IMG/VR virus record: IMGVR_UViG_3300042484_001840
Coordinates: 81,043-145,042 of that record
From: a virus
DNA: 64,000 nucleotides
Direction: 5' to 3' (one strand)
Shown: in pieces, positions 1 through 23,090 of the stretch
How positions within the stretch are numbered: position 1 is the stretch's first letter
How the letters are laid out: each line of letters opens with the position of its first letter
The notes under the pieces: generated by a model
Told to the model about the DNA's origin: nothing
Database searches by the model: none
Seen by the model: only the letters and a program-made list of their open reading frames with translations
Made by a program: the position numbers and the translations under genes

Positions 1-266
1 GACTTGAATTTCTTACCGTCCACTTCAAGTTTGGTAACTTGCTTGAGAACGATAGGCGAGACAAGTTCGGTCAATGCCTTCAGGTTGTACTTGGGTCGCT
101 CACCATTGACGATGAGAACCTTTTGTCCGTCCACGACATTGAAGTTGAGTCCCTTTTCAGCGTAGGCAAGTTTCAAGTCTGCCTCTGCTTGGGCTTTAGC
201 CTTTTCAGCATTTTCCAATGCTTGCTTGGCATTCAAGTAGTTGAGAGTGATTTGTGTGAGATTCAT
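1..266 (-). CDS. hypothetical protein, runs off the left edge (MNLTQITLNYLNAKQALENAEKAK...)
   Basis: Read manually: ATG at 266, AAGGGA RBS, ACTACT leader, promoter TTGCAA(326-321)-17-TATAAT(303-298); frame open to the window edge. Confidence 0.8.
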   Translation of the reverse strand, partial: MNLTQITLNYLNAKQALENAEKAKAQAEADLKLAYAEKGLNFNVVDGQKVLIVNGERPKYNLKALTELVSPIVLKQVTKLEVDGKKFK

Positions 267-345
267 AATTTGTCCCTTTCAGTAGTGGTGTGTATTCATT
301 ATACAGGTTGTGCGTAACAATTGCAACCTTATTTCTAAATTATTT

Positions 346-573
346 TCAGAATTCGTATTCGTCGCCTGTTGATACCCAACAGATTTCGCCATCTTGAAAA
401 CCTTGGCGGTAAAGTTTGCCAAGAACAACAAGTAAGCCGTTAGAGATACTCCCCAACTTGCTTGTGATGTATTCCTCGGCGGTAGCGTCGGTACTAAACA
501 ACTCGTAATTAGTGGCAATGTAATCGCCGTGCATTTCTCCATAAAGAACCGCTTGAAAGAAATTCGTACTCAT
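346..573 (-). CDS. hypothetical early protein (75 aa)
   Basis: ORF with GAAGGG RBS and its own TTGTAA-17-TATACT promoter (638-610). Confidence 0.8.
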   Translation of the reverse strand: MSTNFFQAVLYGEMHGDYIATNYELFSTDATAEEYITSKLGSISNGLLVVLGKLYRQGFQDGEICWVSTGDEYEF

Positions 574-656
574 ATTGTGTCCCTTCGTTAGTAATTGCTT
601 GCGGAAATAAGTATATCAGGTGGGTGTATGAATTACAACATTATTACTTAGATTTA

Positions 657-722
657 TCAGATATTTTTCAGAACCATAGATAATGTTCCGAGTAGGTATA
701 GACCAACGAATAAGAGTCCCAT
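657..722 (-). CDS. 21-aa hydrophobic micropeptide MGLLFVGLYLLGTLSMVLKNI
   Basis: Below ORF-track cutoff; own promoter (780-752), CTACTAC leader and GAAGGA RBS. Confidence 0.6.
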   Translation of the reverse strand: MGLLFVGLYLLGTLSMVLKNI

Positions 723-905
723 AGTAATCCTTCTGTAGTAGGTGAAATATAAGTATACAGGTTGGGTGTAAGAATTACAACCTTATTTATGTTACAGAAT
801 GATTACAATAATTGTAACAGAAATGTTATATTAAAATGTTGTATTTGTTACACAGAAGTGCTATACTTATATTCGTAAGTTACTACTACCGAAAAGGACA
901 AAACT

Positions 906-1103
906 ATGGAAGCGAAATGTTGCGCCGATAAGCCGATGCTAGAAGTTTATGGTTACGAGGGTTGTGCGGATTGTTACGATAAATGGTGCGAGGGCGAACT
1001 TATCGCCTATGAAGATTTACGCCGTGCAGAGTTCGCAAACTCTTGGGTGATTGGTGGCGGTTACGCCTCAGACGCTGATCTCGCTTACGAACAGTTTGCG
1101 TGA
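906..1103 (+). CDS. small Cys-containing acidic protein
   Basis: Promoter TTGTAT(839)-17-TATACT(862), ACTACTAC leader, AAGGA RBS. Confidence 0.8.
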   Translation: MEAKCCADKPMLEVYGYEGCADCYDKWCEGELIAYEDLRRAEFANSWVIGGGYASDADLAYEQFA

Positions 1104-1256
1104 TGGCGAGTCCCACTGCTGAAAGGCGGTGGGACAACCACTTAGTCCCGCTTGGGCAGTCTCATCCGCCACCGTCATTCATTGGGAGCGCGCGTGCGGG
1201 GCTATCTCGGTATACCCCACCCCTAAAGCCCCGTATCCCCCAAAAATTTCTGGGGG

Positions 1257-1288
1257 TTATCCACAGGCTGGGGATAACCTGTGGATAA
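1257..1288. promoter_or_regulatory. DnaA-box cluster A (3 boxes)
   Basis: TTATCCACA 1257, TGGGGATAA 1269, TGTGGATAA 1280. Confidence 0.85.
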
Positions 1289-1298
1289 CTTTGACCCG

Positions 1299-1475
1299 TC
1301 AGCAAGCCCCCTCACAATACTCGCAAGTGGTCTCGTCAACTTCGTGACAGCCATTCCAGCCTTCGTCAACTTTGTTGTTGTCGGCGCAATACTGTATGCG
1401 ACACCAGTCAGAACAGAAAACAATTCTGTCAACGATGTCGCCACTCTTATCTTCAATCAAAAGTAGGTGAGCCAT
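1299..1475 (-). CDS. 58-aa Cys-rich acidic protein (MAHLLLIEDKSGDIVDRIVFCSDWC...CEYCEGAC)
   Basis: Read manually; promoter 1541-1513, ACTACTAC leader, GAAGGG RBS. Confidence 0.75.
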   Translation of the reverse strand: MAHLLLIEDKSGDIVDRIVFCSDWCRIQYCADNNKVDEGWNGCHEVDETTCEYCEGAC

Positions 1476-1605
1476 TATTTTGTCCCTTCGGTAGTAGTGC
1501 CTTACCTTATCTATTATAGCAGGCGGGTGTAGAAATTACAACTCGATTTGTTAAATTTATTTAGAACTTTGGGGGCGGACTTTCGCCCGCCCCCAACGCT
1601 CATGA

Positions 1606-1893
1606 TCAGGCTTCGCACTCGCAGTCGTAGTGGAGTTCTTCGCACCAACCGCAGTGGTCACGATCCCACTCTTCGTCTTCGTCTTCTTCGTCCTGAATGT
1701 CAAAAGACACCCAAGCCATGACGGTACGAAGCAAGTGGTCGTAATCGCCAGCAGTGGCGTTCTGAGTGAACTCAGCGATTACTTCCCGTGATACGCCGTG
1801 ATTACGGAGCGCACCACAAACTCTTGCGATAATGCTGAACGCATTACCGTCCTGCCCGACGAGCAGAACCGAAACTTCAGGATACTTAACCAT
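1606..1893 (-). CDS. conserved small phage protein (GxDGNAF...GDYDHLL motif) with acidic/Cys tail
   Basis: Recognisable phage motif; own promoter and RBS. Confidence 0.8.
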   Translation of the reverse strand: MVKYPEVSVLLVGQDGNAFSIIARVCGALRNHGVSREVIAEFTQNATAGDYDHLLRTVMAWVSFDIQDEEDEDEEWDRDHCGWCEELHYDCECEA

Positions 1894-2066
1894 AATTTGT
1901 CCCTTCGTTAGTAGTTTTTCCTTACCTGATAAGTATAGCAGATAGGTGTAACAACTACACCATTGTAGAGCGTGTCATTTGTCACATAAGATTTATTCGT
2001 AAAAGTGTGTAAATGCTACACCCACCTGCTATAATATATATATCACCTACTACGAAAGGAAAAAAT

Positions 2067-2399
2067 ATGATTTGGAAAGCAAAAGCCTCCGACATTATTG
2101 ACCACCTTGTTTACTCAGGGGCAGACACCTATGAGTGGTATCACGAACTCACCGAAACCAAAGACGGACAAATTGTCTGTACGATGGAAACGGGCGAGTA
2201 CGACGATGAGTCTGAACCGTTGACAGCGAGTGTTGCGTTCTCCCCCACTCACGCCTTGACAGTCGCCAATGCGATTATCAAGGGACAGGGAGCGGGTTGG
2301 CGCACCGTTCAGTCAGCAGTCGCTAATGACGACTTTGACTCCGATGCCGCGGACATCGTTCTCCAGCACATCGTGCTGAGCGACTTGGTGTTCGGCTGA
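2067..2399 (+). CDS. acidic hypothetical protein (MIWKAK...)
   Basis: Start moved to the ATG after GAAAGGA RBS; promoter GTGTAA(2007)-17-TATAAT(2030). Confidence 0.8.
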   Translation: MIWKAKASDIIDHLVYSGADTYEWYHELTETKDGQIVCTMETGEYDDESEPLTASVAFSPTHALTVANAIIKGQGAGWRTVQSAVANDDFDSDAADIVLQHIVLSDLVFG

Positions 2400-2437
2400 G
2401 ACTTCAGGGCGGGGGAGGGAAACCTCCCCCAAGACCC

Positions 2438-2481
2438 TGTGGATAACCTTTTCCACAGCCTGTGGATAACCCTGTGGATAA
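2438..2481. promoter_or_regulatory. DnaA-box cluster B (4 boxes)
   Basis: TGTGGATAA 2438, 2461, 2473; TTTTCCACA 2449. Confidence 0.88.
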
Positions 2482-2596
2482 CTTTCCCGATAGCCCCGTA
2501 TACAAAGTGCGGGTGCGGGACTGTCACGATAAATAGTCGTGGAAATTCTTGAATTGAAAAAACGGGAAGCGGGGCTAACAAACTAAATAGCAGGGG

Positions 2597-2764
2597 TCAA
2601 GCCCCTGCCACACTAGTCACTCGGTCCACGAGAACCCGCAAATCCAACAGAATGTCTGTCATTTTGCCCGCCTCGGCAATACTGACTCCCCGCAAATCAC
2701 GGAGAGTCTCGTCAATGAGGTTATATATTTCCTCGGTTGGCGTGAGTAAATTTAACTGACTCAT
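2597..2764 (-). CDS. 55-aa hypothetical protein (MSQLNLLTPTEE...)
   Basis: Read manually; ATGA overlap with the upstream gene stop. Confidence 0.65.
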   Translation of the reverse strand: MSQLNLLTPTEEIYNLIDETLRDLRGVSIAEAGKMTDILLDLRVLVDRVTSVAGA

Positions 2765-3153
2765 ACTGTCGCCCCTTCCTTGATCTTGGCTAGTTGTTCG
2801 GCACGAATTGCGTTTACTTCCTCGGCTGAGAATACCTTACCGAACACGCTCAACATGGTACGAATGTCGTCGTCCACGCCCGTAGTGTTACCTTCCTCGT
2901 CGTACCCTGCGATAACAGCAGGTCCGACAAGTCGGTAACCTTCGCCAGCCAAAGTAGAAGCGAACTCGTTTAAGGCGAAGTCAGAACGGAATAAACCTTC
3001 CTCGTTCAACCACAAGTCAAGACCGTTCACCAATTGAACGCTCTCAATGAGTCCCTGAACGAGACTCTGGAGAAACTCCAAAGACTTTTGACCTTCGGGC
3101 TTCTGAACAATGTACGGCGAACCGTCTAAATCGTTGATGTAAATGACTTGCAT
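2761..3153 (-). CDS. DUF3846-like protein
   Basis: LQxLVxGxIE...LWLNEEG...LVGPAVI motif. Confidence 0.75.
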   Translation of the reverse strand: MQVIYINDLDGSPYIVQKPEGQKSLEFLQSLVQGLIESVQLVNGLDLWLNEEGLFRSDFALNEFASTLAGEGYRLVGPAVIAGYDEEGNTTGVDDDIRTMLSVFGKVFSAEEVNAIRAEQLAKIKEGATV

Positions 3154-3245
3154 AATTAGTCCCTTTCGTAGTAGTGTTTATATATTATAGCCTTGTGGGG
3201 CAGGAAAGTCAAATCCTGCCCCACAATTATTTCATTTCTTTAGGC

Positions 3246-3434
3246 TCAGACCGTGACCTTGCGTGCCTTGCGTCGCGCGCGGACATTGCGGATCTCTGCG
3301 CGAAGTGATGCGGTGAGTCCAGCCTTGATCCAAATGGCGGTTATCAAAGAAGCGTTGATCATAACCAGCAAGCCTCTGATGACTTCCAAAGTGTAATCCG
3401 AGAGAGTGAAGTTGATAGTGTATTGAGCAATCAT
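3246..3434 (-). CDS. small membrane protein with basic C-terminus
   Basis: One hydrophobic segment; promoter 3492-3464; RBS. Confidence 0.7.
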   Translation of the reverse strand: MIAQYTINFTLSDYTLEVIRGLLVMINASLITAIWIKAGLTASLRAEIRNVRARRKARKVTV

Positions 3435-3588
3435 TTTGTGCCTTTCGTAGTAGGTATGAGATAAGTATAGCGACTTTGTGTAACTTTTACAACCTTCTAG
3501 TAAGTGTCATTTGTCACACTACTCAATGTTGTAATTTCTACACAGACTCGCTATAATATACTTGTACACAACTACTAAAGGAGAAAAT

Positions 3589-3822
3589 ATGCTCAGCACC
3601 AAAATTGGAAATAGTGACTGGTACTTCGTTCTCAACAACGGAGCGACTCGCAAGTTCTCAGTTCAGTTTCTCGGCAGACGACGAGGAGACGACAAGCGAG
3701 ACATCGTGACATTCCGTGAAGGTGCGCCACACTACGAGGCGTACACGACCGAGACGGGCAAAGCAATTCCGAAGTTTGTCGCAAAAGCAATTTGGGAAGC
3801 AATGGAAAAGTCCCCCGCCTGA
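3589..3822 (+). CDS. hypothetical protein (MLSTKIG...)
   Basis: Promoter TTGTAA(3529)-17-TATAAT(3552), AAGGAG RBS. Confidence 0.8.
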   Translation: MLSTKIGNSDWYFVLNNGATRKFSVQFLGRRRGDDKRDIVTFREGAPHYEAYTTETGKAIPKFVAKAIWEAMEKSPA

Positions 3823-4003
3823 CAAGCGGGGGAAACCCTTTAGCCCCGTTGGATATATGCGTGCGTGGAAAGTTTTGACGCTTCTCTTCCGCCACCGTCA
3901 ATAGTAGGGAACACAGGGGCGGGGCTGTCACCCCTAAATAGGGGTGTTCAGGGGGCGTACCTCACGATACGCCCCCTTCGGGTGGCCAAACTCGCCACTC
4001 GCC

Positions 4004-4450
4004 TCACTCCTCGTTGAACAAGTCGTTCAGCATTTGCGTTTCTAAGTTCCGCATACTAGAACTTTCCACGATGTCACTAACCATCTTGCCTAGGTCAAAG
4101 CCCGCTTCTGCGAGTTCTGCTAGAAGTTCCTCAGACGGTTCTTCCTCAACTTCGGCGTAGTGTTGTTGCTTCTCGTCGTCGCTCATCGCTTGGATACTGC
4201 GGTCATAGCCAACCCAATTCCCAATGTTTGAGTACTCGTCTAGTTGCTCGTGAGTAAGATTGAACTCACGCATAACACGCTCGGTCATGACCGATGAAGG
4301 TATGCCTTCACCTAACTCCACGCTTCGCTTAGCGTTCTCTATGAGAAGGCTCGTACGGTAGTTACAAAGCCGTACGAAGTGGTCAGGGTAGTAGAACGAT
4401 ACTCCATTGGGGAATTCGCTATCAGGGAAAAAATCGGACTTGGTAATCAT
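4004..4450 (-). CDS. acidic hypothetical protein
   Basis: ORF; start after GAAAGGA RBS. Confidence 0.75.
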   Translation of the reverse strand: MITKSDFFPDSEFPNGVSFYYPDHFVRLCNYRTSLLIENAKRSVELGEGIPSSVMTERVMREFNLTHEQLDEYSNIGNWVGYDRSIQAMSDDEKQQHYAEVEEEPSEELLAELAEAGFDLGKMVSDIVESSSMRNLETQMLNDLFNEE

Positions 4451-4466
4451 TAGTAATCCTTTCGGG

Positions 4467-4694
4467 TCAGAGGTCTGGTAAGTAATCAAATTCTACGGTT
4501 GTCTCCCAAGAGATATCTTTCATTTCCCAACCGTAGTGGTAGCGAAGGTTCTTGGTTGCCATGTCAATGGCGACTTCTGTTAGTTGGTCATTATCCAAGT
4601 TGGTGAATGACGGCTCCTCTAAATCTATCTCAACAAAGTGAGTCAGAGAAAAGAAATCTCCAACAAAGGTGACATTACAACTTGCGTGCTTCAT
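4467..4694 (-). CDS. hypothetical protein
   Basis: ORF with GAAAGGA RBS and ACTAC leader. Confidence 0.75.
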   Translation of the reverse strand: MKHASCNVTFVGDFFSLTHFVEIDLEEPSFTNLDNDQLTEVAIDMATKNLRYHYGWEMKDISWETTVEFDYLPDL

Positions 4695-4737
4695 AGTAAT
4701 CCTTTCGGTTGTAGTTGGTATGGGGTGAAGTTGGGGG

Positions 4738-5253
4738 TCAGACCCCCAACTCCTCGGCTAGTTGCTTCTGAGTCTTACCTAGGTGCTTCTTAGCGCACAC
4801 AGGGCCGACTCCGACACGATGACCGTAGCCATCCTTGTCGTCTAGTTCGGCACTACAGAACAAACAAACGCCCGTACGCACGCCGTACTCCATAGCGACG
4901 AGTGCGGTGACCTTTTCGGTTGGCGAGAGCAGGGAGATCGCTCCACGCTCGTAAATCCAACCGCTTTCGCCACGACGCATTGCGTAGAGATTGCCACCTT
5001 CGGATTGCTTCACCTTGTAGATCAAGTGACCGACGAGGTAGAAACCGACTTCGGTAACCTTCTCGGCAGGCTTGACTTCCGTAGCAGGCTTAGCCATAAC
5101 CTTGGCGAACATTGAACGGATAGCCTTTTCTTGCGCTTCGCTCAATGCGCCCTTGTTCTCAAAAGTCTTAGCGATTGAGATTGCGAACGCACTCCACTGT
5201 TGGGCTTTCGCCCATTCAATGACGGAAGTAATCGGGGTCAATGTGGTAGTCAT
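4738..5253 (-). CDS. DUF6011-like zinc-ribbon protein
   Basis: C-terminal CxxC...L...GxGPVC motif; promoter 5315-5287. Confidence 0.75.
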   Translation of the reverse strand: MTTTLTPITSVIEWAKAQQWSAFAISIAKTFENKGALSEAQEKAIRSMFAKVMAKPATEVKPAEKVTEVGFYLVGHLIYKVKQSEGGNLYAMRRGESGWIYERGAISLLSPTEKVTALVAMEYGVRTGVCLFCSAELDDKDGYGHRVGVGPVCAKKHLGKTQKQLAEELGV

Positions 5254-5328
5254 AATTTCTCCTTAGTAGTAGTGGTGATAAATACAAGTATACAGCAGGG
5301 GTGTATGAATTACAACCCCTGCCTCGGC

Positions 5329-5451
5329 TCACCAAGTTGGTGGCCGACCGATGAAGTTGCCATCGGAGTCGTAGCAACCATTGTCGGGGTCAAGGTAGCC
5401 CTGAGCGTCGTAGCGGTCAGGATCGTTGTAGTCGTCATGATCGTTATTCAT
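5329..5451 (-). CDS. 40-aa Asp/Tyr-rich peptide (MNNDHDDYNDPDRYDAQG...)
   Basis: Read manually; promoter 5512-5484, ACTACTAC leader, AAGGGG RBS. Confidence 0.7.
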   Translation of the reverse strand: MNNDHDDYNDPDRYDAQGYLDPDNGCYDSDGNFIGRPPTW

Positions 5452-5533
5452 AATTTCCCCTTTGTAGTAGTTGGTATTTAATAAGTATACAGGCTTCGTG
5501 TAAGAATTACAACCTTATTCGCAAGATTATTGG

Positions 5534-5549
5534 TGTGACATTGGTCACA
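5534..5549. promoter_or_regulatory. perfect CRP/GlxR-type site TGTGA-N6-TCACA (related sites at 1972, 3504, 6228, 10419, 11571, 21818)
   Basis: GTG-N8-CAC palindromes just upstream of -35 boxes. Confidence 0.7.
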
Positions 5550-5774
5550 GGCCAGTCGTCTGGGGGCTTGGGGGTCGTCGGCCGGGTTTGGGGAGTTTGG
5601 CCACCCTGCTTCGGAGGCATTTAGTCCCGCTTGGTTATGGCGAGTTTCCCGTGTTTGTCGCAAGCCCCGCAGGTGAAAACGGCAAAGCGGAGATGCGGGG
5701 CTAGTGGTGGTTTTCGGATTAGCAATTATATGTAAGGGGTGGGGCAGGGTTTCCCCCGCCCCACCATGCCCCTG

Positions 5775-6143
5775 TCACCACACAGGAGTAAATCGTCGCT
5801 CGTCGGCGTTGTAAGCGTGTTCGTAGTGAGTGCCTTTATTCTCAAGGTTACGAACTTCAATTTCTTGAACGAGACGCTTGGCAATTGCGCTGAAGTTCAA
5901 GCCATCAGTGCCTGCCACCATTCGCTTGCGTCGGTGGGCGATAACCGAAGCGGTAACCAATTCCGAACGCTTGAGTGCGTTCTCGTCGGCGTACACCTTC
6001 GTTACTGCGTCGGCTACTTGTTGGTAATCCCAACAGGCGTTGTACATTCCGCCGAGCAGTGTAATTAAATCAAATCGTGACGGAAGTGAATAGTAATCGC
6101 CCTGTAATTTGGTGGGCTTATTCTTATGCCATTTGGTAAGCAT
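5775..6143 (-). CDS. hypothetical protein
   Basis: Promoter 6206-6178; GAAAGGA RBS. Confidence 0.8.
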   Translation of the reverse strand: MLTKWHKNKPTKLQGDYYSLPSRFDLITLLGGMYNACWDYQQVADAVTKVYADENALKRSELVTASVIAHRRKRMVAGTDGLNFSAIAKRLVQEIEVRNLENKGTHYEHAYNADERRFTPVW

Positions 6144-6316
6144 ATTTTTTCCTTTCGTAGTAGTGGTTATGAATATAAGTATACACCTTCTGTGTAGGAA
6201 TTACAACTTCTAGCGTCAAATAATTGTGTGACAAATGACACTAGGCAGAACTGTGTAAATGCTACACCCACCTGCTATACTTGTATATGTAAGGAAAACC
6301 TACCGAAAGGAATACT

Positions 6317-6499: not shown

Positions 6500-6500
6500 T

Positions 6501-6701: not shown

Positions 6702-6766
6702 CTTGACATTCCTACACCTAGGGTGTATAATATACCTATAACGAAAACTAACCGAAAGGACTACTA

Positions 6767-8326: not shown

Positions 8327-8332
8327 AAGCGA

Positions 8333-16065: not shown

Positions 16066-16087
16066 CAAACATCAAAAATAGAGTCAT

Positions 16088-16119: not shown

Positions 16120-16134
16120 CTATTTGGAGAAAAA

Positions 16135-16730: not shown

Positions 16731-16801
16731 GTTGACAATCTAGCATGATGCTGGTAACCTTGTCGGTAACAACCCCACAGGGGAACACGAGGAGAATACG
16801 A

Positions 16802-17263: not shown

Positions 17264-17352
17264 GCGAATTCTCGTTCTTCATAGTGTGTCTACTAGGGAC
17301 ATACGCAGTAGTGAAATTGGTTGATGGTCGGGGCAAGAAATAGCCCCGACCA

Positions 17353-17556
17353 TTACCATTTCTGATGTATGAATTCCCACACTTCAACTGGCACAGAGTC
17401 CTCGTAGTACGGATCAAGGATTGTACCGATGAGTTCCGAAGCAATGTCGGGTCTGACCATCGCAAGGAAGTTTGATATCGCCTGCCCTAGTCGTTGACTC
17501 TCCCTATTGCGTTCAAAGTAATCGGTTGAGTTACTAAGGAACTCTATGTAGTTCAC
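17353..17556 (-). CDS. small phage protein (RxGQ...DPYY motif)
   Basis: GTGA overlap with the upstream stop. Confidence 0.7.
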   Translation of the reverse strand: MNYIEFLSNSTDYFERNRESQRLGQAISNFLAMVRPDIASELIGTILDPYYEDSVPVEVWEFIHQKW

Positions 17557-17816
17557 TCTGTCCACTCCCAAGTTCCGTTTTGGTGAAGCGTAGCATTTGA
17601 CGGAGCGTCACAGTTCTTGATGTCCACGAACATTTGCCCGTCGTTCTCCCAAGTAAAGTTAGCGTTGAGCACTACTGGGCAGGGATTGTCATTATCGGGG
17701 TCTACGATGTCTGCTAGGCGTGTTATACCAAGCATAGAGAATATTCCTAGTCCACCCCAAAAAGTGAAGCGGACTGCTGTGCGGATAGAGTAGTAGAGTG
17801 ATGTTTTAGTAGTCAT
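17553..17816 (-). CDS. membrane protein, probably leaderless
   Basis: TTGACA(17851-46)-17-TATAAT(17828-23), 6 nt before ATG. Confidence 0.7.
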   Translation of the reverse strand: MTTKTSLYYSIRTAVRFTFWGGLGIFSMLGITRLADIVDPDNDNPCPVVLNANFTWENDGQMFVDIKNCDAPSNATLHQNGTWEWTE

Positions 17817-17844
17817 AGTTACATTATACAAAACCTATCCATGA

Positions 17845-18312
17845 ATGTCAAGGATTGTTATGGCAGATAAGATAAACAAAAAATCAGCACCAAGACAGAA
17901 AATCTTAGGGATAGAACGGGAAGGCGCATGGGGAAGGGTTGAGTATCTCCATCGGTTGGCGTGCGGGCATACCGAGCGACGGAAGCGACCAGCGAAAACT
18001 GAGATTATCTCTTGTTCGTGGTGCGTGGTTGCGGAAGAGCAAACGGAAGTTCTACAGAGTTTCGCCACGAAGAGACCACAAAGCCCCGCTGAAGATGATG
18101 TTTTTGACAGAATGGGATCGCTGATTGCTGTTTCGGAAAGAGAAGTTTCCAAACTGAAGGCAGAAATTGCGTCTAAGTTTGATGTTCCTGTGGACTATGT
18201 TGATGTTGTCGTGGAAGACGATGACGGGACTCTTTCGGTTTCGTACGCAATTATCTTCTTGTCAGCGCAAGACATCAAGAACATTCTCGTGGACTCTAAA
18301 GAAAATACTTGA
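17845..18312 (+). CDS. hypothetical protein with CGH...CxxC zinc motif
   Basis: ORF track; Cys/His motif. Confidence 0.75.
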   Translation: MSRIVMADKINKKSAPRQKILGIEREGAWGRVEYLHRLACGHTERRKRPAKTEIISCSWCVVAEEQTEVLQSFATKRPQSPAEDDVFDRMGSLIAVSEREVSKLKAEIASKFDVPVDYVDVVVEDDDGTLSVSYAIIFLSAQDIKNILVDSKENT

Positions 18313-18378
18313 CATTCACCCACTCACTCAGTAGACTATGGCTAAAGTTACTACTAACAACAACAGAAAGATACAATC

Positions 18379-18795
18379 ATGAAGCGACTTATCCCAATTA
18401 TCATCGCCACCCTCGCACTTACTGCGTGTGGAACTAAAACCGTGTATGTCACCAGCACCGAAGCACCCGACACAACTGTAGAAGTTACCGAGACGACTGA
18501 TGCGCCAATTGCGACTCCTGCGCCTACAGTCCCGTCTTACACTTCAGAAGATGAATTCATCGCAGACATCTACAACGAAAACACTGGTCCCATCTACCTT
18601 GAAGACCAAGACCTGATTGACACAGGATATGCGGTTTGTGATGGTTTGCGTAGTGGTATGACTGGCTACGATGCACTTGATGCAATTGTCTCATCATCTG
18701 AAGGTGATACCGCTGTAGAGGAACTGCTTATCAATGTTACAGCATCGGCGGTTGTGAACTTCTGCCCTGAGCAGGCATACAAGTTCGGAGAATGA
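18379..18795 (+). CDS. DUF732-like lipoprotein
   Basis: Lipobox LTAC; GxxVC...FCP motif; TTGACA-17-TAGACT promoter (18309-18337). Confidence 0.8.
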   Translation: MKRLIPIIIATLALTACGTKTVYVTSTEAPDTTVEVTETTDAPIATPAPTVPSYTSEDEFIADIYNENTGPIYLEDQDLIDTGYAVCDGLRSGMTGYDALDAIVSSSEGDTAVEELLINVTASAVVNFCPEQAYKFGE

Positions 18796-18796
18796 T

Positions 18797-18982
18797 ATGA
18801 CCAATAGAGACACTTACGACATTTTGTCATACGAAGAAGAACAGAAGCAATCAAAAAGCGGGACTAACATTCAGATCAACACCCTGATTGACGCAATGAT
18901 TGATGCGGAGAAGTGTTTATTCCGTAACAAAGACGAAAACCTAATGCCTGTCAGTGAACAAGAATACAAATTAGGAGAATGA
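18797..18982 (+). CDS. hypothetical protein
   Basis: Operonic, GGAG RBS. Confidence 0.6.
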   Translation: MTNRDTYDILSYEEEQKQSKSGTNIQINTLIDAMIDAEKCLFRNKDENLMPVSEQEYKLGE

Positions 18983-18983
18983 A

Positions 18984-19415
18984 ATGAAGCGACTCGCCTT
19001 AATCGCACTACTAGTCCCGTTACTCGTTTCATGTAGCGCAGCCATGAGCAACGAGACAACAACTCTTCAGCCGCTACCAACAACGATCAACATTCCCGTT
19101 TTTGACACAATTCCCGCACTAGATGGCAAGCCATACACCGACGAAGAGTTCGCGTTTTTTGATGATGTAACTTTCTTCTACGGGGCTAGTACCGACTTGA
19201 GCGATGAGAAACTTCTTGAGTTGGGAGTTACATGGTGTCAGTTAATGATCGGAGGCATGAGTGCCGAAGATGTTATCGGGCGGATCAACGAAGGATCAAG
19301 CGATAACGCCGATGCTCTTCTTCACTTCTCTGTTGTAAATGCAGGGATTGAGAACTTATGCCCCTCGCAGTGGGATAAAGCGGAGTATATTGCTCTCAAT
19401 TCGTTCTTGCCGTGA
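18984..19415 (+). CDS. DUF732-like lipoprotein
   Basis: Lipobox LVSC; GxxWC...LCP motif. Confidence 0.75.
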   Translation: MKRLALIALLVPLLVSCSAAMSNETTTLQPLPTTINIPVFDTIPALDGKPYTDEEFAFFDDVTFFYGASTDLSDEKLLELGVTWCQLMIGGMSAEDVIGRINEGSSDNADALLHFSVVNAGIENLCPSQWDKAEYIALNSFLP

Positions 19416-19417
19416 TG

Positions 19418-19636
19418 TCATACGGGACTATCTGAAAGTGTGAGAAACTTTGTGATGGGGAAAAAAATGAAATTAGCCTCAGTTGGCATCGCCACAATTA
19501 CTGTTTCGTATGTTTTTTCAGCACTTCTGTTCATGCTTATTGCCATGACTCTCATGAACCCTACGCCTCGTGTTCGGGAGATATTCCTACAGCCCCGCAC
19601 TACGGGTCGTCGGCGTGGTTCGTTGTCTGACTTCAC
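19418..19636 (-). CDS. basic hypothetical protein
   Basis: GTGA overlap with the upstream gene. Confidence 0.5.
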   Translation of the reverse strand: MKSDNEPRRRPVVRGCRNISRTRGVGFMRVMAISMNRSAEKTYETVIVAMPTEANFIFFPITKFLTLSDSPV

Positions 19637-19803
19637 TTCATAGGTTTTTCGGTGAGTCTGATGTACGGACTTGCCATCGCCTTCGCATAGGCGCGCGAGT
19701 GGCTTAGTCCTTCTTGGTGGCGCTGTAGGACATACTCCATAGAGAACGCCCTACTCCACCTATTCGCCTTCATCGTTCTGAGTGTTAGTAGTTGGTAGTT
19801 CAT
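19633..19803 (-). CDS. 56-aa hypothetical protein (MNYQLLTLRTMK...)
   Basis: Read manually; GGAGG RBS. Confidence 0.6.
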   Translation of the reverse strand: MNYQLLTLRTMKANRWSRAFSMEYVLQRHQEGLSHSRAYAKAMASPYIRLTEKPMK

Positions 19804-19837
19804 TGTTGCCCTCCGTTCTAGGGGAACAGTACAGCGG

Positions 19838-20101
19838 TCACCACCCGCTGTACTGTTCGTATTCTTCCCGTGTTGGTACTTCGTTCAGCATACGCTGGTA
19901 GGACTCAACGCAACTCTCAAAGTCGCTGGTCTCGTGCCAATCTTCTTCGGACTTGCCTTCGTTGGTCTCTAGCCAAAAGCCGTATGACTCGTGGTAGGAG
20001 TCGGTTCCGATGAAACTCTCTGATGCCTCATCGTAAGCGTCTTGCGCTTCGTGCCTGTCTTGGTATGGCTGTTGTAGCCAAGTGTCGTAGTCAACGCCCA
20101 T
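19838..20101 (-). CDS. acidic hypothetical protein (MGVDYDTWL...)
   Basis: TTGACA-17-TATACT promoter (20170-20142); ACTACTAC leader; AAGGAG RBS. Confidence 0.8.
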   Translation of the reverse strand: MGVDYDTWLQQPYQDRHEAQDAYDEASESFIGTDSYHESYGFWLETNEGKSEEDWHETSDFESCVESYQRMLNEVPTREEYEQYSGW

Positions 20102-20275
20102 TGTCTTGCTCCTTTGTAGTAGTTGCTTCCTTATGAATACAAGTATAGCGAGAATGTGTAAGGTTGTCAACCTTTTGTTGGAAAATATTTAGAAATATAT
20201 TTTTGGGAAATAGTTGACATTCTCTCACTTATCCCGTATAATGTATCTATACACAAATCTACTAAAAGGAAAAAT

Positions 20276-20464
20276 ATGAAAATCTTAGAAATCCCCGAAA
20301 ACGAAACTATTGAAATCATCTCGGCTAATGTCATAGAGTTTTGGCGAGACGGGCAACTGATGGGCGATACCCACAAGGGTCTAGCCGATACCATTCGCCT
20401 GACGGGTATCAAGGGGCTGACAGTAGTCCTGACCGACAGACTCCCCAACGAGAGCGAGCGGTGA
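20276..20464 (+). CDS. hypothetical protein
   Basis: Perfect TTGACA(20214)-17-TATAAT(20237); AAGGA RBS. Confidence 0.75.
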   Translation: MKILEIPENETIEIISANVIEFWRDGQLMGDTHKGLADTIRLTGIKGLTVVLTDRLPNESER

Positions 20465-20512
20465 CAGCCGCTCGGCAAGCGGGGCTAGTTGAGATACTGG
20501 GGTAAAACCCGA

Positions 20513-20540
20513 ACGACCTGAGTATGTCGTAAAACTACTC
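20513..20540 (+). ncRNA. putative H-type pseudoknot RNA element
   Basis: ACGAC/GTCGT stem; loop GAGTA pairs with downstream TACTC. Confidence 0.4.
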
Positions 20541-20580
20541 TTCTTTGCTATCTCCCGATAGCCCCGTACTCGCCACGAAC

Positions 20581-20677
20581 TCGGATTTTTTTGTGACGGA
20601 CTTTTTGCTACTGCCGTTTTTTCATTTCGTGCTTCGGATTTTTTTGTGAAAACTTTTCGCTACTGCTATTTTTTCAG
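20581..20677. repeat. imperfect 44-bp direct repeat (53-bp period)
   Basis: TCGGATTTTTTTGTGA...ACTTTT.GCTACTGC..TTTTTCA at 20581 and 20634. Confidence 0.8.
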
Positions 20678-20703
20678 TACGGGCTTTTATGCAAAAAAAA
20701 AAG

Positions 20704-20736
20704 TTATCCACAGGCTGTTGATAAACCTGTGGATAA
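20704..20736. promoter_or_regulatory. DnaA-box cluster F (3 boxes)
   Basis: TTATCCACA 20704, TGTTGATAA 20716, TGTGGATAA 20728. Confidence 0.85.
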
Positions 20737-20739
20737 CTC

Positions 20740-21048
20740 TCATTGCTGACTCGTGGAAACTTTTGTTCTGTTCCGTAACCCAATCATTGCGGACAAATAA
20801 AATCCTGCCGCGTGACGCTCCATCTCTGTTTCTCCGCCCCACACGCCGTACTCGTGGTTTTTCCTGCCGTACTCTCGGCACTCTGCGGATACAGGGCATT
20901 GCCGACATATAGCGACCGCTTGTGCTTCACGCTTTACCCGTCTCTCAGGTCGCTCGGCAACCTTAGGGAAGAATAGGTCTAACTTGCCACTACAAATTCC
21001 CAACTTCTGCCATTCGGTATCTAGAGTTTGAGTGTCGTTGTCGGTCAT
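20740..21048 (-). CDS. whiB: WhiB-family Fe-S transcription factor
   Basis: C...LFF...CxxCPV...C, GVWGG.TE.ER. Confidence 0.92.
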   Translation of the reverse strand: MTDNDTQTLDTEWQKLGICSGKLDLFFPKVAERPERRVKREAQAVAICRQCPVSAECREYGRKNHEYGVWGGETEMERHAAGFYLSAMIGLRNRTKVSTSQQ

Positions 21049-21749
21049 ACAAACTCCATAATCAGAACTGAGTCGTCTTCCATTGTGTCTCTGCCAAGCA
21101 CATGAACTTCCGTGCCTTCGCTATTCCATATTGCTCGCACATGATGATGACCGCAAATGTGAAAGCGAGGCTTCACCTTCTGCTGGATCTCAAGTACTAA
21201 CTCTCGCTGGTACACAGATACGGGAATGTCGTCCTTGTATGTGAGTTCAACTCCGTAGGGTGCGTCATGAGTAATGAGCACATCTACTTCCTCGTCGCTG
21301 AGTGTGTCAATATGGTAGGGGCTGATGAGTTCTTGCTTCCACCAAGTACGACCTAGTTCCCTATCTTTCCAATCCACGCTATACGCTCCGCCATACCCCA
21401 TAAAGGTATAGCCGTTCATATCAAAGCGACAGCCACGAGGTATCCACTTCACCCATTCGTTGGGCGTAGGGATAGGTCTAGTGTCTCCGTGCTGAGTGCG
21501 TAGGTCGTCTAGTAGGTCGTGGTTCTCGTGGTTGCCATCTATCCACATGAGTGGAATATTGTTGGCTTCTGCGAGTGCCACACAGCGTGCTAGGAACTTC
21601 TTACCAAAGGGCAAATGTACCCAGTAGCCAAAGTCACCGCAAGCGATAATCGTATTCACTTCGTTCTTGTGTGCGTGGGCGTATAGCCATTCAAGGTGCT
21701 GAATGTTTCCGTGAATGTCGCCTGCGAATAGTACTTTCATTATGTTCAC
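21045..21749 (-). CDS. calcineurin-like metallophosphoesterase
   Basis: GDIHG, GDFG, GNHE, THD, GHHH motifs. Confidence 0.9.
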   Translation of the reverse strand: MNIMKVLFAGDIHGNIQHLEWLYAHAHKNEVNTIIACGDFGYWVHLPFGKKFLARCVALAEANNIPLMWIDGNHENHDLLDDLRTQHGDTRPIPTPNEWVKWIPRGCRFDMNGYTFMGYGGAYSVDWKDRELGRTWWKQELISPYHIDTLSDEEVDVLITHDAPYGVELTYKDDIPVSVYQRELVLEIQQKVKPRFHICGHHHVRAIWNSEGTEVHVLGRDTMEDDSVLIMEFV

Positions 21750-21835
21750 CTCCAGGGTGATTAGTAGTTATGTGTATAGTATATCAGAATTGTATATAGA
21801 TTACAACCCCGATGAGCGTGTGATTAGTCACACGA

Positions 21836-22105
21836 TTACTTGACATCTCCCCAACCTCGCCAAGCCTTACCCCAACGAGGCGAGGTAGTGCGTAGGTAGC
21901 ACGCCCACAAGGGGTGGCGCTCTACGACCATCTCGGGCAAGATGACATGAACGAATAGGTCTAGTCGCCGTATGAACCTACAAGGCGAACCTAACCTATA
22001 GCGAGACACAGGGGCGCTCTCATGAGCCTCCACGAACGCTCTAAGGCTCGTAGGGTCTATATCCCAAGGGTCAAGCCCTACTCTGTCTGCGAGTGTGCGT
22101 ATCAA
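21836..22105 (-). CDS. hypothetical protein
   Basis: ORF overlapping the upstream stop; start uncertain. Confidence 0.5.
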   Translation of the reverse strand: MIRTLADRVGLDPWDIDPTSLRAFVEAHESAPVSRYRLGSPCRFIRRLDLFVHVILPEMVVERHPLWACYLRTTSPRWGKAWRGWGDVK

Positions 22106-22368
22106 ACTAGTTCGTACCACTTCATGATATGCGGACCACAACCCCCATAGTGGATAGCCATGATCTCGGCAAGCACTAACTCAAACTCTTTGCCTTGTGA
22201 GTAGGTCAAGGTAGGGTCGTTGCCTAGCACTTGCTTGACTCCCTTGTATGTGTCTGCGATGAGTTGAGCCTGCCTAAGTGACTCAAGGCGAGGCGTTGTA
22301 TTCTTTGATACTGCCTTGCTTCTGACGATCTCTCGTACTTGCTCTATGTTGCTGAGTAGGTCGTTCAT
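22102..22368 (-). CDS. hypothetical protein
   Basis: Operonic ORF. Confidence 0.65.
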   Translation of the reverse strand: MNDLLSNIEQVREIVRSKAVSKNTTPRLESLRQAQLIADTYKGVKQVLGNDPTLTYSQGKEFELVLAEIMAIHYGGCGPHIMKWYELV

Positions 22369-22369
22369 C

Positions 22370-22600
22370 TCATTTCCCCTTCGTTGTTTGTAGTCGTACT
22401 CGTGTGCTCGTGACTTTCTTTTGCTCTGTTGCCTTGCGTGTCAAGCGACCCCAACCCCAACTAGTAGGTGACTTCACTTCGCTTTGCTTTGCCTTGCGTG
22501 TCAAGTAAAAGTGTGCGACAAGTGTGTCATTGGGATTGAACTCTGACAGTTCATCTATGAGCATTTGTACTGTCATTTTTGATAATGTATTGCGTGTCAT
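22370..22600 (-). CDS. basic hypothetical protein (LTRKA twice)
   Basis: ACTACTAC leader, AAGGA RBS, TTGCTT-17-TATGAT promoter. Confidence 0.7.
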   Translation of the reverse strand: MTRNTLSKMTVQMLIDELSEFNPNDTLVAHFYLTRKAKQSEVKSPTSWGWGRLTRKATEQKKVTSTRVRLQTTKGK

Positions 22601-22751
22601 GCTTTGTCCTTTAGTAGTAGTGACAAGGTAATCATACACAACTATCAAACAAAAAGCAACCTTTATCAAAAGAAATATTTATTATAGTTATGTGACATAA
22701 TCAACAACTATCATAACAATAATGATTACATATATAGCAATTACATATCAG

Positions 22752-22926
22752 TTATACACAACCTGTGGATAAGGTGTGGATAACTTTGTACACAGGCTGT
22801 GGGTAACGCTGTGGATAACGATGAGTGCTGTGGATAATGCTGTGTATAACCTGTGTATAACCTGTGGATAAAGCGAGGCATCAACTGTGGATAACTAGCA
22901 CCATCTGTGGACAAAGATGTGGATAA
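22752..22926. repeat. large DnaA-box array G (about 13 boxes, mostly co-oriented) next to an AT-rich tract
   Basis: TGTGGATAA 22764, 22775, 22810, 22829, 22863, 22886, 22918; TGTGTATAA 22841, 22852; TTATACACA 22752. Confidence 0.93.
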
Positions 22927-23037
22927 CTGTTGCGAAAATGAGGATGCGGGGCTATTTTTCAGACGACCTCAGAACAGGGGGGTAGAGACACACACACCAT
23001 ATTGCATTGTTTCCATATAGATTTATCCAAAGTCGTC

Positions 23038-23075
23038 GTAGTGCACTACCCTTTAATCTCGGTGTAGTGCACTAC
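23038..23075. repeat. two perfect 12-bp palindromes GTAGTGCACTAC
   Basis: 23038-23049 and 23064-23075. Confidence 0.85.
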
Positions 23076-23090
23076 TTCAACTTTTCGTGA

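What the first reader, a model, noticed from the sequence alone, without database searches (positions are those of the whole stretch)
1..23080. Candidate new system: a 23-kb early region built as a non-coding platform of host-regulator binding sites (DnaA, LexA, CRP-like, GlnR/MtrA-like, unknown heptamer)
Seen: several unrelated motif classes are concentrated in 1-23 kb and were not noticed in the remaining 41 kb. They are about 45-50 DnaA boxes in 7 clusters, 6 tandem SOS boxes, about 7 CRP-like palindromes, GTTAC-N6-GTTAC sites and 38 CGGGGCT heptamers. Known: DnaA initiates host replication, LexA represses SOS, and CRP/GlxR and GlnR/MtrA report nutrient and cell-cycle state. Inference: this is probably the first-expressed DNA. 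It may both read host physiology (single sites at promoters) and titrate host master regulators by copy number (arrays away from promoters). That would be a protein-free takeover layer working alongside about 50 tiny early genes.
Basis: partly seen in the sequence, partly recalled or inferred. Interest (0 to 1): 0.92.

Follow-up and report, generated by a model that had tools for sequence, protein, structure and literature searches.

The report
Phage early region studded with host-regulator sites
The early, gene-cassette region of an uncultured 134-kb phage of actinobacteria really is packed with consensus DnaA and LexA sites, and with a 7-base word (CGGGRCT) found nowhere else in the genome. 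The host sites most likely act as control inputs to phage promoters rather than as a pure sponge, and the word is a tag of unknown reader that is conserved across the phage family.

Summary
In window 1-23 kb there are 27 perfect and about 21 one-mismatch DnaA boxes in 7 clusters. There are also 6 tandem CGAAC-N4-GTTCG (LexA-type) boxes, 7 CRP-like palindromes and 38 CGGGGCT, and none of these classes is enriched in the other 41 kb. GTTAC-N6-GTTAC occurs only once.

New here:
- The region extends 9.5 kb left of the window, making a 32.7-kb domain R of a roughly 134-kb, circularly assembled, whiB-encoding actinophage. No DnaA, LexA, CRP, integrase or DNA polymerase gene was recognised in the phage.
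- The heptamer is really CGGGRCT: 62 copies in R and 0 elsewhere (10.7 expected). It is partly made by synonymous codons, evenly spaced inside an operon, and forms AGYCCCG-N17-19-CGGGRCT pairs between cassettes. It is the top 7-mer in most of 80 relatives and is confined to one domain in the complete relatives whose sites were all listed.
- R is an array of at least 24 stereotyped promoter-ORF-hairpin cassettes with hypervariable ORFs, like the PeSL cassettes of T4-type phages.
- The SOS array and the 13-box DnaA array directly adjoin leftward cassette promoters. The 19-box array lies about 300 bp upstream of one.
- The heavy DnaA load is lineage-specific, and perfect boxes are at chance level in five distant complete relatives.

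Verdict: real and unusual. The "read host state" idea is plausible, "titration platform" is unproven and not family-wide, and the heptamer tag is the most novel element. Other first-stage notes on this same genome had already flagged these motifs.

The parts
1..23080 (.). Right two-thirds of domain R (genome 71.5-104.2 kb). GC is 0.46-0.49 against 0.40-0.45 elsewhere, coding density is low, and small genes lie on both strands.
1257..1288 (.). DnaA-box cluster 1: 3 boxes as an inverted pair plus one, in a convergent 3' zone beside heptamers at 1144, 1197 and 1227.
2438..2481 (.). DnaA-box cluster 2: 4 boxes with a 12-bp period, in a convergent 3' zone.
9613..9908 (.). DnaA-box array of about 19 boxes. 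The core at 9654-9908 is a 92-bp unit repeated 2.8 times. Each unit holds 6 boxes and a TTGTA..TACAA palindrome. The array lies about 300 bp upstream of the leftward promoter whose -10 is at 9315.
10073..10105 (.). DnaA-box cluster 4: 3 boxes just past the 3' hairpin of a minus-strand cassette.
10829..10850 (.). DnaA-box cluster 5: an inverted pair directly after the G/C hairpin that ends gene 10463-10792.
20704..20736 (.). DnaA-box cluster 6: 3 boxes directly downstream of the whiB gene at 20740-21048 (minus strand).
22752..22926 (.). DnaA-box array of about 13 boxes with an 11-bp period, at the right edge of R. It lies upstream of the promoter of minus-strand gene 22370-22669.
22662..22761 (.). 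AT-rich tract (80% AT, tied second among the most AT-rich 100-bp windows of the genome) that abuts the 13-box array. It has a 62-bp indel relative to the near relative.
11595..11730 (.). Six tandem LexA-type boxes (CGAACnnnnGTTCG). They lie between the leftward cassette promoter (-10 at 11536, palindrome at 11570-11585) and a TTGACA hexamer ahead of the helicase gene.
11570..11585 (.). CRP-like palindrome TGTGAC-N4-GACACA, one of 7 in the window. The others are at 1971, 3503, 5534 (perfect), 6227, 7815 and 10418.
9349..9364 (+). The only exact GTTAC-N6-GTTAC. It occupies the upstream-operator position of the cassette promoter at 9315.
1144..22953 (.). 53 CGGGRCT words (38 G-type, 15 A-type). 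Between cassettes they occur in clusters of 2-3. Inside the operon from 12.1 to 19.6 kb there are 25 evenly spaced singles.
11817..19415 (+). Plus-strand operon: SNF2 helicase (11817-13724), two SLT-like proteins, DUF932 (15037-16065), SSB (16745-17263) and DUF732 proteins.
10360..10480 (.). Example of a back-to-back cassette promoter pair that shares one palindrome: TTGTAA, 17-nt spacer, TG, then TATACT.

Best explanation
Domain R is the hyperplastic early and accessory region of a large, probably lytic, whiB-encoding actinophage that appears to depend on the host DNA polymerase.

Layout. R is built from at least 24 stereotyped mini-cassettes. Each has an upstream palindrome, then a sigma-A-type promoter (TTGTAA inside a palindrome, a roughly 17-nt spacer, TG, then TATACTTAT), then a conserved leader, a small variable ORF and a 3' inverted-repeat element. 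R also holds one helicase/SSB operon.

Host-regulator sites. The consensus DnaA, LexA and CRP-like sites are interchangeable cis-regulatory modules placed in the intergenic spacers. The SOS array and the 13-box DnaA array directly adjoin cassette promoters, and the 19-box array lies about 300 bp upstream of one. The small DnaA pairs lie at promoters in relatives and at cassette 3' ends here. The inferred mechanism is that host DnaA and LexA gate particular phage early genes, so the phage reads the host's replication and SOS state. The 13-box array with its AT tract may in addition recruit DnaA to start phage replication with the host replisome. Sequestering DnaA or LexA would be a by-product, or an add-on in this lineage, arising from recent tandem amplification.

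Heptamer. CGGGRCT is a separate, DNA-level tag that marks the whole domain for an unidentified, probably phage-encoded, DNA-binding protein. That protein might drive domain-wide shut-off or activation, or act as a roadblock.

Shown: the sites, their positions, their conservation, and the absence of phage homologues of the host regulators.
For: Sites are real and region-limited.

Phage gene content:
- The phage lacks a DnaA C-terminal domain, a LexA DNA-binding domain and a CRP HTH.
- It lacks a recognisable PolA, PolB or DnaE, and lacks tyrosine and serine integrases.
- It has three whiB genes.

SOS module:
- An SOS triple (spacings 15 and 48 bp) next to a leftward promoter and its palindrome is conserved in L038, L052, L060 and L077, whose helicases are about 60% identical to this one. 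L004 has four boxes with different spacing.
- The copy number is 6 here and 8 in the 99% relative.

DnaA sites:
- In relatives, DnaA pairs sit about 20 nt upstream of a -35 element.
- In G001 the 13-box array directly adjoins a palindrome, promoter and leader.
- The arrays are recent tandem repeats.

Cassette turnover:
- Cassette ORFs have no homologue in the loci of 81 relatives, whereas the helicase, DUF932 and SSB do.
- G000 and G001 differ by cassette-size indels whose breakpoints lie at or near intergenic modules.

Heptamer:
- 62 copies in R and 0 outside, where 10.7 are expected.
- Some copies are created by synonymous codons.
- They occur in both orientations and in all reading frames.
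- Spacing inside the operon is even: CV 0.50, matched by only 4 of 20000 random placements.
- It is the top 7-mer in most relatives and is domain-limited in G002, G006, G007, G009 and G010.
- In type-2 relatives there is a sharp boundary at the helicase start.
- The paired form is seen 149 times in one order against 2 in the other, and the two arms vary independently.
Against:
- The host is unidentified, so its own DnaA, LexA and CRP consensus sequences are assumed from general knowledge of actinobacteria.
- Thirteen to 19 DnaA boxes and 6-8 LexA boxes are far more than a promoter needs, which leaves room for a sponge or origin role.
- The small DnaA clusters in this genome sit at gene 3' ends, not at promoters.
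- The CRP-like palindromes could be operators of a phage repressor.
- No reader protein for CGGGRCT was found. The intergenic pairs can also fold as hairpins, with slightly more pairing than spacer-shuffled controls.
Confidence: 0.5

Rival explanations
1. The arrays are selected mainly as a protein-free sponge. As the phage DNA multiplies, about 50 DnaA boxes and 6-8 LexA boxes per genome drain the host's DnaA and LexA. This blocks initiation at the host oriC, freeing the host replisome for a phage without a polymerase, and it derepresses the SOS response.
For: - Box numbers far exceed regulatory needs, and the boxes are perfect consensus.
- Tandem amplification is recent and ongoing: a 92-bp unit repeated 2.8 times, an 11-bp unit repeated 9.8 times, and 6 versus 8 SOS boxes between genomes whose helicases are 99% identical.
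- The phage has no recognisable DNA polymerase, so it should benefit from idle host replisomes.
Against: - The DnaA load is at chance level in five complete or nearly complete relatives, and most loci hold only a few pairs.
- The arrays sit upstream of promoters, two of them directly adjacent.
- The CRP-like and GTTAC classes are parts of the promoter module.
- No test of titration was possible.
Confidence: 0.2
2. One or both large DnaA-box arrays are the phage's replication origin or origins. Host DnaA would oligomerise on helically phased boxes, open the adjacent AT-rich tract and load the host replisome, as at oriC or at DnaA-dependent plasmid origins.
For: - The boxes have 11-12 bp phasing.
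- An 80% AT tract abuts the 13-box array and is tied second among the most AT-rich 100-bp windows of the genome.
- No phage DNA polymerase or classical initiator was recognised.
- A primase-helicase gene lies 8 kb away.
Against: - The 19-box array has no AT-rich flank.
- The AT tract carries a 62-bp indel relative to a 96-99% relative.
- Distant relatives lack such arrays.
- Cumulative GC skew tracks the coding strand and gives no origin signal.
- The phage primase-helicase may have an origin of its own.
Confidence: 0.3
3. A boundary of the T5 type. R would be the first DNA to enter the cell, and the DnaA-box array at its right edge would bind membrane-associated DnaA to pause injection, as has been proposed for the T5 injection-stop signal.
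For: - The 13-box array lies exactly at the right edge of the tagged domain; the last heptamer is at 22947.
- The boxes occur in pairs 2-3 bp apart, as in T5 relatives (bioRxiv 10.1101/866236).
- R holds small early-type genes.
Against: - The physical ends of the genome are unknown. The record and its relative are circular assemblies, and the 11.3-kb end duplication carries tail genes, not R.
- Most boxes lie well inside R.
- Relatives lack a boundary array.
- The T5 model itself is only a proposal.
Confidence: 0.07
4. The 'host' motifs are in fact operators of unrecognised phage-encoded repressors that happen to share these consensus sequences, and CGGGRCT is only the conserved stem base of cassette terminators with no function at the DNA level.
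For: - Most R proteins have no Pfam match, so novel DNA binders are possible.
- The intergenic heptamer pairs can fold, with MFE -15.3 against -13.1 for spacer-shuffled controls.
- In G010 nearly all sites are pairs, one per cassette.
Against: - Nine-of-nine matches to TTATCCACA and the CGAAC-N4-GTTCG palindrome are the near-universal DnaA site and the Gram-positive/actinobacterial LexA site (my own knowledge).
- Heptamer singles inside coding sequence occur in both orientations, are made by synonymous codons and are evenly spaced.
- The two arms show no covariation.
- The word is strictly avoided outside R.
Confidence: 0.1

Closest known systems
PeSL (promoter-early stem-loop) mobile regulatory cassettes in the hyperplastic regions of T4-type phages (PMC2839356, PMC4122927)
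   Same: - Small variable ORFs of unknown function are each framed by a conserved early promoter and a stem-loop.
- Indels and replacements between close relatives break at or near these modules.
   Different: - This is a different phage group (actinophage) with different motif sequences.
- The modules here additionally carry DnaA, LexA and CRP-like sites and a domain-wide heptamer.
- The recombination role is inferred from the positions of breakpoints only.
DnaA boxes in the injection-stop (iss) region of T5-like phages (bioRxiv 10.1101/866236)
   Same: Consensus TTATCCACA boxes and one-mismatch variants occur in pairs about 3 bp apart, among inverted repeats, in the non-coding DNA of a pre-early or early region.
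   Different: - T5 relatives have 8 boxes in a fixed layout inside a terminal repeat. Here there are about 50 boxes in 7-8 clusters, tandemly amplified, and the position of R relative to the genome ends is unknown.
- The layout is not conserved in distant relatives.
DnaA-box clusters of chromosomes: oriC, E. coli datA and the B. subtilis DnaA-box clusters (review PMC5835720)
   Same: High-affinity boxes are densely packed and phased by the helical repeat. One array lies next to an AT-rich tract.
   Different: - These arrays are on a phage.
- There is no neighbouring dnaA or dnaN gene.
- Neither unwinding nor titration has been shown.
LexA-controlled phage genes (for example coliphage 186 tum, CTX phage and Bacillus phage GIL01; cited from my own knowledge)
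   Same: Host LexA operators at phage promoters couple phage gene expression to the SOS response.
   Different: - Known cases use one or two operators in temperate phages. Here there are 6-8 tandem boxes in a phage with no integrase.
- The module is shared by a divergent promoter region.
Stoperators of Cluster A mycobacteriophages (PMC9283540)
   Same: Dozens of copies of a short asymmetric site are dispersed through an actinophage genome, in intergenic and coding DNA, and are read by one phage protein that blocks transcription.
   Different: - Stoperators are 13-14 bp, are oriented with transcription, are spread over the whole genome, and have a known repressor.
- CGGGRCT is 7 bp, has no orientation preference, is confined to one domain, is avoided elsewhere, and has no known reader.
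DNA uptake sequences (Haemophilus USS, Neisseria DUS) and region-restricted chromosome tags such as matS (cited from my own knowledge)
   Same: A short word occurs in both orientations. It is evenly spaced, forms inverted pairs at gene ends, and occurs as single copies inside genes through codon choice. Like matS, it is confined to one domain.
   Different: No uptake or macrodomain machinery is known for a phage. This is an analogy of pattern only.

Membership tests
DnaA-dependent origin (oriC type) | A cluster of consensus 9-mer DnaA boxes with helical phasing | tested here: met
   There are 19 boxes at 9613-9908 and 13 boxes at 22752-22926, spaced 11-12 bp apart.
DnaA-dependent origin (oriC type) | An adjacent AT-rich unwinding element | tested here: inconclusive
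   An 80% AT tract at 22662-22761 abuts the 13-box array, but it has a 62-bp indel in a near relative. There is no such tract at the 19-box array.
DnaA-dependent origin (oriC type) | Conservation of the origin in relatives, or linkage to an initiator gene | tested here: not met
   There are no arrays in distant relatives, and no dnaA-like gene in the phage.
DnaA titration locus (datA-like) | Many high-affinity boxes that lower the level of free DnaA | not testable with these tools
   The box count is met. The effect on initiation needs an experiment.
T5-type injection-stop signal | DnaA boxes in pairs about 3 bp apart among inverted repeats | tested here: met
   One example is TTATCCACA-GGC-TGTGGATAA. 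The pairs are 2-3 bp apart.
T5-type injection-stop signal | Location in the first-entering terminal repeat | tested here: inconclusive
   The record and its relative are circular assemblies. The 11.3-kb end duplication holds tail genes, not R. The true termini are unknown.
LexA (SOS) operator, Gram-positive/actinobacterial type | A CGAAC-N4-GTTCG palindrome at a promoter | tested here: met
   There are six boxes (4 perfect, 2 with one mismatch) between a leftward promoter and a TTGACA hexamer.
LexA (SOS) operator, Gram-positive/actinobacterial type | Binding by host LexA | not testable with these tools
   The phage has no LexA DNA-binding domain. The host is not identified.
CRP/GlxR site | TGTGA-N6-TCACA | tested here: inconclusive
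   There is 1 perfect site, 1 with one mismatch and 5 with two mismatches. All sit at a fixed position in the repeated promoter module. The phage has no CRP HTH.
GlnR/MtrA-type direct repeats | Recurrent GTTAC-N6-GTTAC | tested here: not met
   There is one exact site in 145 kb.
PeSL-type mobile regulatory cassettes | A conserved early promoter and stem-loop framing variable small ORFs | tested here: met
   There are at least 24 promoters of one design, inverted-repeat elements at 3' ends, and ORFs without homologues in 81 relatives.
PeSL-type mobile regulatory cassettes | Indel breakpoints between close relatives fall at the modules | tested here: met
   G000 and G001 differ by replacements or insertions of about 200-640 bp. 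Their breakpoints are at 5714, 8560 and 20470, which lie next to a heptamer pair, a -10 element and a heptamer.
Stoperator-type dispersed repressor sites | An asymmetric site oriented with transcription, with a known cognate repressor | tested here: not met
   There is no orientation bias, and no reader was identified.

The most novel reading that the evidence does not exclude
A large family of uncultured whiB-encoding actinophages marks one 25-35 kb genome domain with a dedicated DNA word, CGGGRCT. Some lineages use only the G form and some only the A form. The word is kept at an even density of 2-3 per kb by codon choice and is purged from the rest of the genome. It would act as a macrodomain-style address read by an unknown protein, switching, shielding or handling the early region as one unit. 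Within that domain, individual lineages plug in and amplify binding sites for host master regulators (DnaA, LexA), both to sense those regulators and to deplete them.
Probability: 0.25. Interest if true: 0.88.

Novelty: new variant of a known kind. Interest (0 to 1): 0.75.

Why it matters
If host DnaA and LexA do bind here, this phage ties its early programme, and perhaps its replication start, directly to the host's replication-initiation and DNA-damage state. It would do so using DNA sites rather than proteins. That would give a clean system for asking whether DNA alone can sequester a master regulator during infection.

The CGGGRCT tag is the more general point. It shows that a phage genome can carry a region-specific sequence code. 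The code is conserved in most of the 80 fetched loci, out of 540 relatives detected in metagenomes. It is enforced by synonymous codon choice in one domain and by avoidance everywhere else, and nothing is known yet about what reads it.

The cassette array also extends PeSL-like modular gene shuffling from T4-type phages to actinophages.

Tried and rejected
- megablast of R against GenBank phages found no match. Protein hits to Arthrobacter and Gordonia phages are only about 31-34% identical.
- No tRNA gene was found.
- Host identification failed. The ribonucleotide reductase scan of genome contigs returned only a contig binned as 'Bacteroidia MAG', probably a mis-binned phage. Relatives cannot be drawn for a virus record. 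The frequency of CGGGRCT in host genomes therefore could not be tested.
- The literature search for the heptamer found nothing relevant.
- Rfam gave no family in R.
- GC skew follows the coding strand and gives no origin signal.
- The idea that heptamer pairs are base-paired RNA stems was weakened. The variable position in the two arms fits independence exactly, and pairing beyond the heptamer is only slightly above shuffled controls.
- The integron-attC idea was rejected, because there is no tyrosine or serine recombinase and because single copies occur inside coding sequence.
- The idea that R is a recent foreign insertion was rejected. R shares the genome-wide avoidance of GGCGCC, GACGCC and GAGCCC.
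- A search for a conserved reader gene by presence in relatives' loci gave only helicase, DUF932, SSB and a few others, none of them an evident site-specific binder.

Full report
**1. What the DNA is**

The window is the last 64 kb of a 145,042-bp virus record. Bases 1-11341 of that record repeat at 133702-145042 with 99.6% identity. The unique genome is therefore about 133.7 kb and was assembled as a circle. Its 99%-identical relative G001 also closes on itself, through a 193-bp overlap.

- The genome encodes tail fibres, a primase-helicase, a ribonucleotide reductase, ThyX and an N6/N4 DNA methylase.
- It carries three whiB genes and a DUF732 protein, so the host is almost certainly an actinobacterium. 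At 44% GC the host would be a low-GC one.
- I found no DnaA C-terminal domain, LexA DNA-binding domain, CRP-type HTH, tyrosine or serine integrase, or family A, B or C DNA polymerase.
- There is no close relative among GenBank phages.

**2. The observation**

All the strong motif classes are real and region-limited.

- DnaA boxes. There are 27 perfect TTATCCACA in the window, all before 23 kb. With one mismatch allowed there are 57 matches against 18.6 expected, and no shuffle reached 57.
- SOS boxes. Six CGAACnnnnGTTCG boxes lie at 11595-11730.
- Heptamer. CGGGGCT occurs 38 times in the window and 43 times in the genome, never outside the region.
- CRP-like palindromes. Seven exist.
- GTTAC-N6-GTTAC. 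It occurs only once.
- Extent. Genome-wide binning shows that the domain (R) runs from about 71.5 to 104.2 kb. That is 9.5 kb beyond the window's left edge, and the extra stretch holds an eighth DnaA cluster.
- Character of R. It has higher GC, lower coding density and small genes on both strands.

**3. R is a cassette array**

An unbiased k-mer contrast of R against the rest of the genome recovered the DnaA box and the heptamer. It also recovered a promoter word (TAAGTATA, the reverse complement of TATACTTA, 17 in R against 1 elsewhere) and a leader word.

- Promoter design. Aligning the promoter sites shows at least 24 promoters of one design. Each has an upstream palindrome of the TGTG-N8-CACA type or a TGTAAC repeat. 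A -35 element TTGTAA follows, embedded in its own palindrome. Then come a roughly 17-nt spacer, a TG, the -10 element TATACTTAT, and a leader ending in an AGGA-type ribosome site before the ATG.
- Consequence for two motif classes. Back-to-back promoters share one palindrome. The 'CRP-like' and 'GTTAC' classes are therefore parts of this repeated module, not independent sites.
- Variable ORFs. The cassette ORFs have no Pfam family apart from DUF3846. They also have no homologue in the loci of 81 relatives, whereas the helicase (81 of 81), DUF932 (65) and SSB (39) are shared.
- Shuffling. Even G000 and G001 differ by insertions and replacements of about 200-640 bp. Their breakpoints lie next to a -10 element or a heptamer.
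- Closest match. This pattern is that of the PeSL cassettes of T4-type phages (PMC2839356, PMC4122927).

**4. Where the host-regulator sites sit**

- SOS array. It adjoins the palindrome at 11570-11585 and the leftward promoter whose -10 is at 11536. Its last box abuts a TTGACA hexamer ahead of the helicase gene.
- SOS module in relatives. The same module is conserved in L038, L052, L060 and L077 (about 60% helicase identity): a leftward promoter, a palindrome and an SOS triple with spacings of 15 and 48 bp. There it lies 4.6-7.8 kb from the helicase. L004 has four boxes with different spacing. The module therefore belongs to the divergent promoter region, not to the helicase as such.
- SOS copy number. 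The 99% relative has 8 boxes instead of 6.
- 13-box DnaA array. In G001 the array runs straight into a palindrome, a promoter and a leader of a leftward gene. In this genome a 62-bp AT-rich insertion separates them.
- 19-box DnaA array. It is a 92-bp unit repeated 2.8 times, and it lies about 300 bp upstream of the promoter at 9315.
- Small clusters. Those at 1257, 2438, 10073 and 10829 lie at cassette 3' ends beside heptamer pairs. The cluster at 20704 lies just downstream of whiB.
- DnaA pairs in other sublineages. In L046, L047, L064 and L068 the pairs lie about 20 nt upstream of a -35 element.
- Distant relatives. Five complete or nearly complete relatives have only 1-6 perfect boxes per 137-159 kb, which is chance level, and no excess of TTGTCCACA.

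The DnaA and LexA sites are thus modular, movable and amplifiable intergenic elements. The heavy DnaA load is an innovation of this lineage.

**5. What the arrays do**

Reading by host DnaA and LexA is the simplest view, because the sites match the consensus perfectly and the phage has no homologue of either protein.

- Regulation. Placement next to promoters argues first for regulation. The phage would sense initiator activity and SOS state.
- Origin. An origin role for the 13-box array is plausible. It has 11-bp phasing and abuts an 80% AT tract that is tied second among the most AT-rich 100-bp windows of the genome, and the phage has no polymerase. The variable AT tract, the absence of arrays in relatives and the uninformative skew all weaken this.
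- Titration. It would follow automatically from copy number, and it could help a phage that needs the host replisome. It is untested and not conserved across the family.
- T5-like injection stop. This is the closest published parallel for DnaA boxes in early non-coding phage DNA (bioRxiv 10.1101/866236). The genome ends are unknown here.

**6. The heptamer**

The word is CGGGRCT. There are 43 G-type and 19 A-type copies, all 62 in R. Outside R there are 0 copies against 10.7 expected (P about 2e-5). The core CGGGGC occurs 47 times in R and once in the remaining 112 kb, where 18-22 are expected.

- R is not a recent insertion. It shares the genome-wide avoidance of GGCGCC, GACGCC and GAGCCC.
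- Codon choice. In the helicase gene the word is made by synonymous codons. For example, the same ISPEV and DAGLK peptides in the 80%-identical L001 use other codons.
- Orientation. The sites occur in both orientations and in all frames.
- Spacing. Inside the operon from 12.1 to 19.6 kb, 25 single sites are spaced 143-740 bp apart with a CV of 0.50. Only 4 of 20000 random placements are as even, and none has so large a minimum gap.
- Paired form. Between cassettes the word appears as AGYCCCG-N(17-19 or 26-27)-CGGGRCT. This order is seen 149 times across the family and the opposite order twice. The variable position in the two arms combines exactly as expected under independence: 41/54/24/30 observed against 41.4/53.6/23.6/30.4 expected. 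Extra pairing beyond the heptamer is slight. This argues for two protein half-sites rather than a stem selected for pairing, although the pairs can also fold as hairpins.
- Family-wide enrichment. A helicase profile found 540 relatives. In most of the 80 loci fetched, AGCCCCG is the top 7-mer. Some lineages use only the G form (L085-L092), some only the A form (L027, L034, L071), and most use both.
- Domain restriction in relatives. In G006, G007, G009 and G010 every site lies in one stretch of 24-35 kb. In G002 all 13 CGGGGCT copies lie in the first 21.5 kb of 50 kb.
- Two types of relative. In 'type-2' relatives the word stops sharply at the helicase start, with 0 copies in the next 12 kb. 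In 'type-1' relatives, like this genome, the helicase operon is inside the tagged domain.

My reading is that CGGGRCT is a DNA-level address for the domain. Its reader is unidentified and probably phage-encoded. The pattern resembles uptake sequences and matS. The nearest functional analogue is the stoperator (PMC9283540). No paper mentions the word in this context, and Rfam has no match in R.

**7. Verdict**

The most novel element is the domain tag. Other first-stage notes on this same genome had already flagged the arrays, the cassettes and the heptamer. I checked those claims here independently.

Noticed in passing
genome 1-11341 = 133702-145042 (window 52660-64000): The record's two ends are an 11.3-kb duplicate (99.6% identity) that carries tail-fibre genes. 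This looks like a wrap-around of a circular assembly across strain variants, not a true terminal repeat. IMG/VR classes the record as 'linear'.
   Followed up: partly
whole genome: This 134-kb phage has no recognisable DNA polymerase of family A, B or C. It does encode a primase-helicase, SSB, ribonucleotide reductase and ThyX.
   Followed up: partly
whole genome: Several short words are absent or strongly depleted both in R and in the rest of the genome: GGCGCC (0 against 56 expected), GACGCC (0 against 40), GAGCCC (0 against 20), GGATCC (0 against 14) and AGCGCT (8 against 64). This looks like avoidance of restriction sites.
   Followed up: no
window 1166, 3889, 7957, 9935 and genome 77832; also L046, L052, L068, L077: A second family-wide intergenic word, (T)TCCGCCACCGTC, is always on the same strand and lies 5-40 nt before a heptamer or heptamer pair. 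In one frame it reads Pro-Pro-Pro. Its function is unknown.
   Followed up: no
window 1-11500 and genome 72-81 kb: Almost none of the small cassette ORFs has a homologue in the loci of 81 relatives, while the flanking promoter and heptamer modules are conserved. The gene content is hypervariable within a conserved frame.
   Followed up: partly
window 2761-3153 (minus strand), 15037-16065, 16745-17263, 13833-14906: DUF3846, DUF932, SSB and SLT-like proteins occur together. From my own knowledge, this set is typical of the leading regions of conjugative elements.
   Followed up: no
L093 (JBDNIH010000009.1, 'Bacteroidia bacterium' MAG): A 25.9-kb contig binned into a Bacteroidia MAG encodes a ribonucleotide reductase 75% identical to the phage's. 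It is probably a mis-binned contig of a related phage.
   Followed up: no
window 26195-28234 (minus strand): A 679-aa protein gives a weak PI3/PI4-kinase-like hit.
   Followed up: no
window 20470-21045 compared with L003 19355-19703: The whiB cassette of R is replaced by a different, shorter segment in the 99% relative.
   Followed up: no
window 7852-7951: This is the most AT-rich 100 bp of the genome (84% AT). It lies inside R next to a CCGCCACCGT word and heptamers, and no DnaA boxes are nearby.
   Followed up: no
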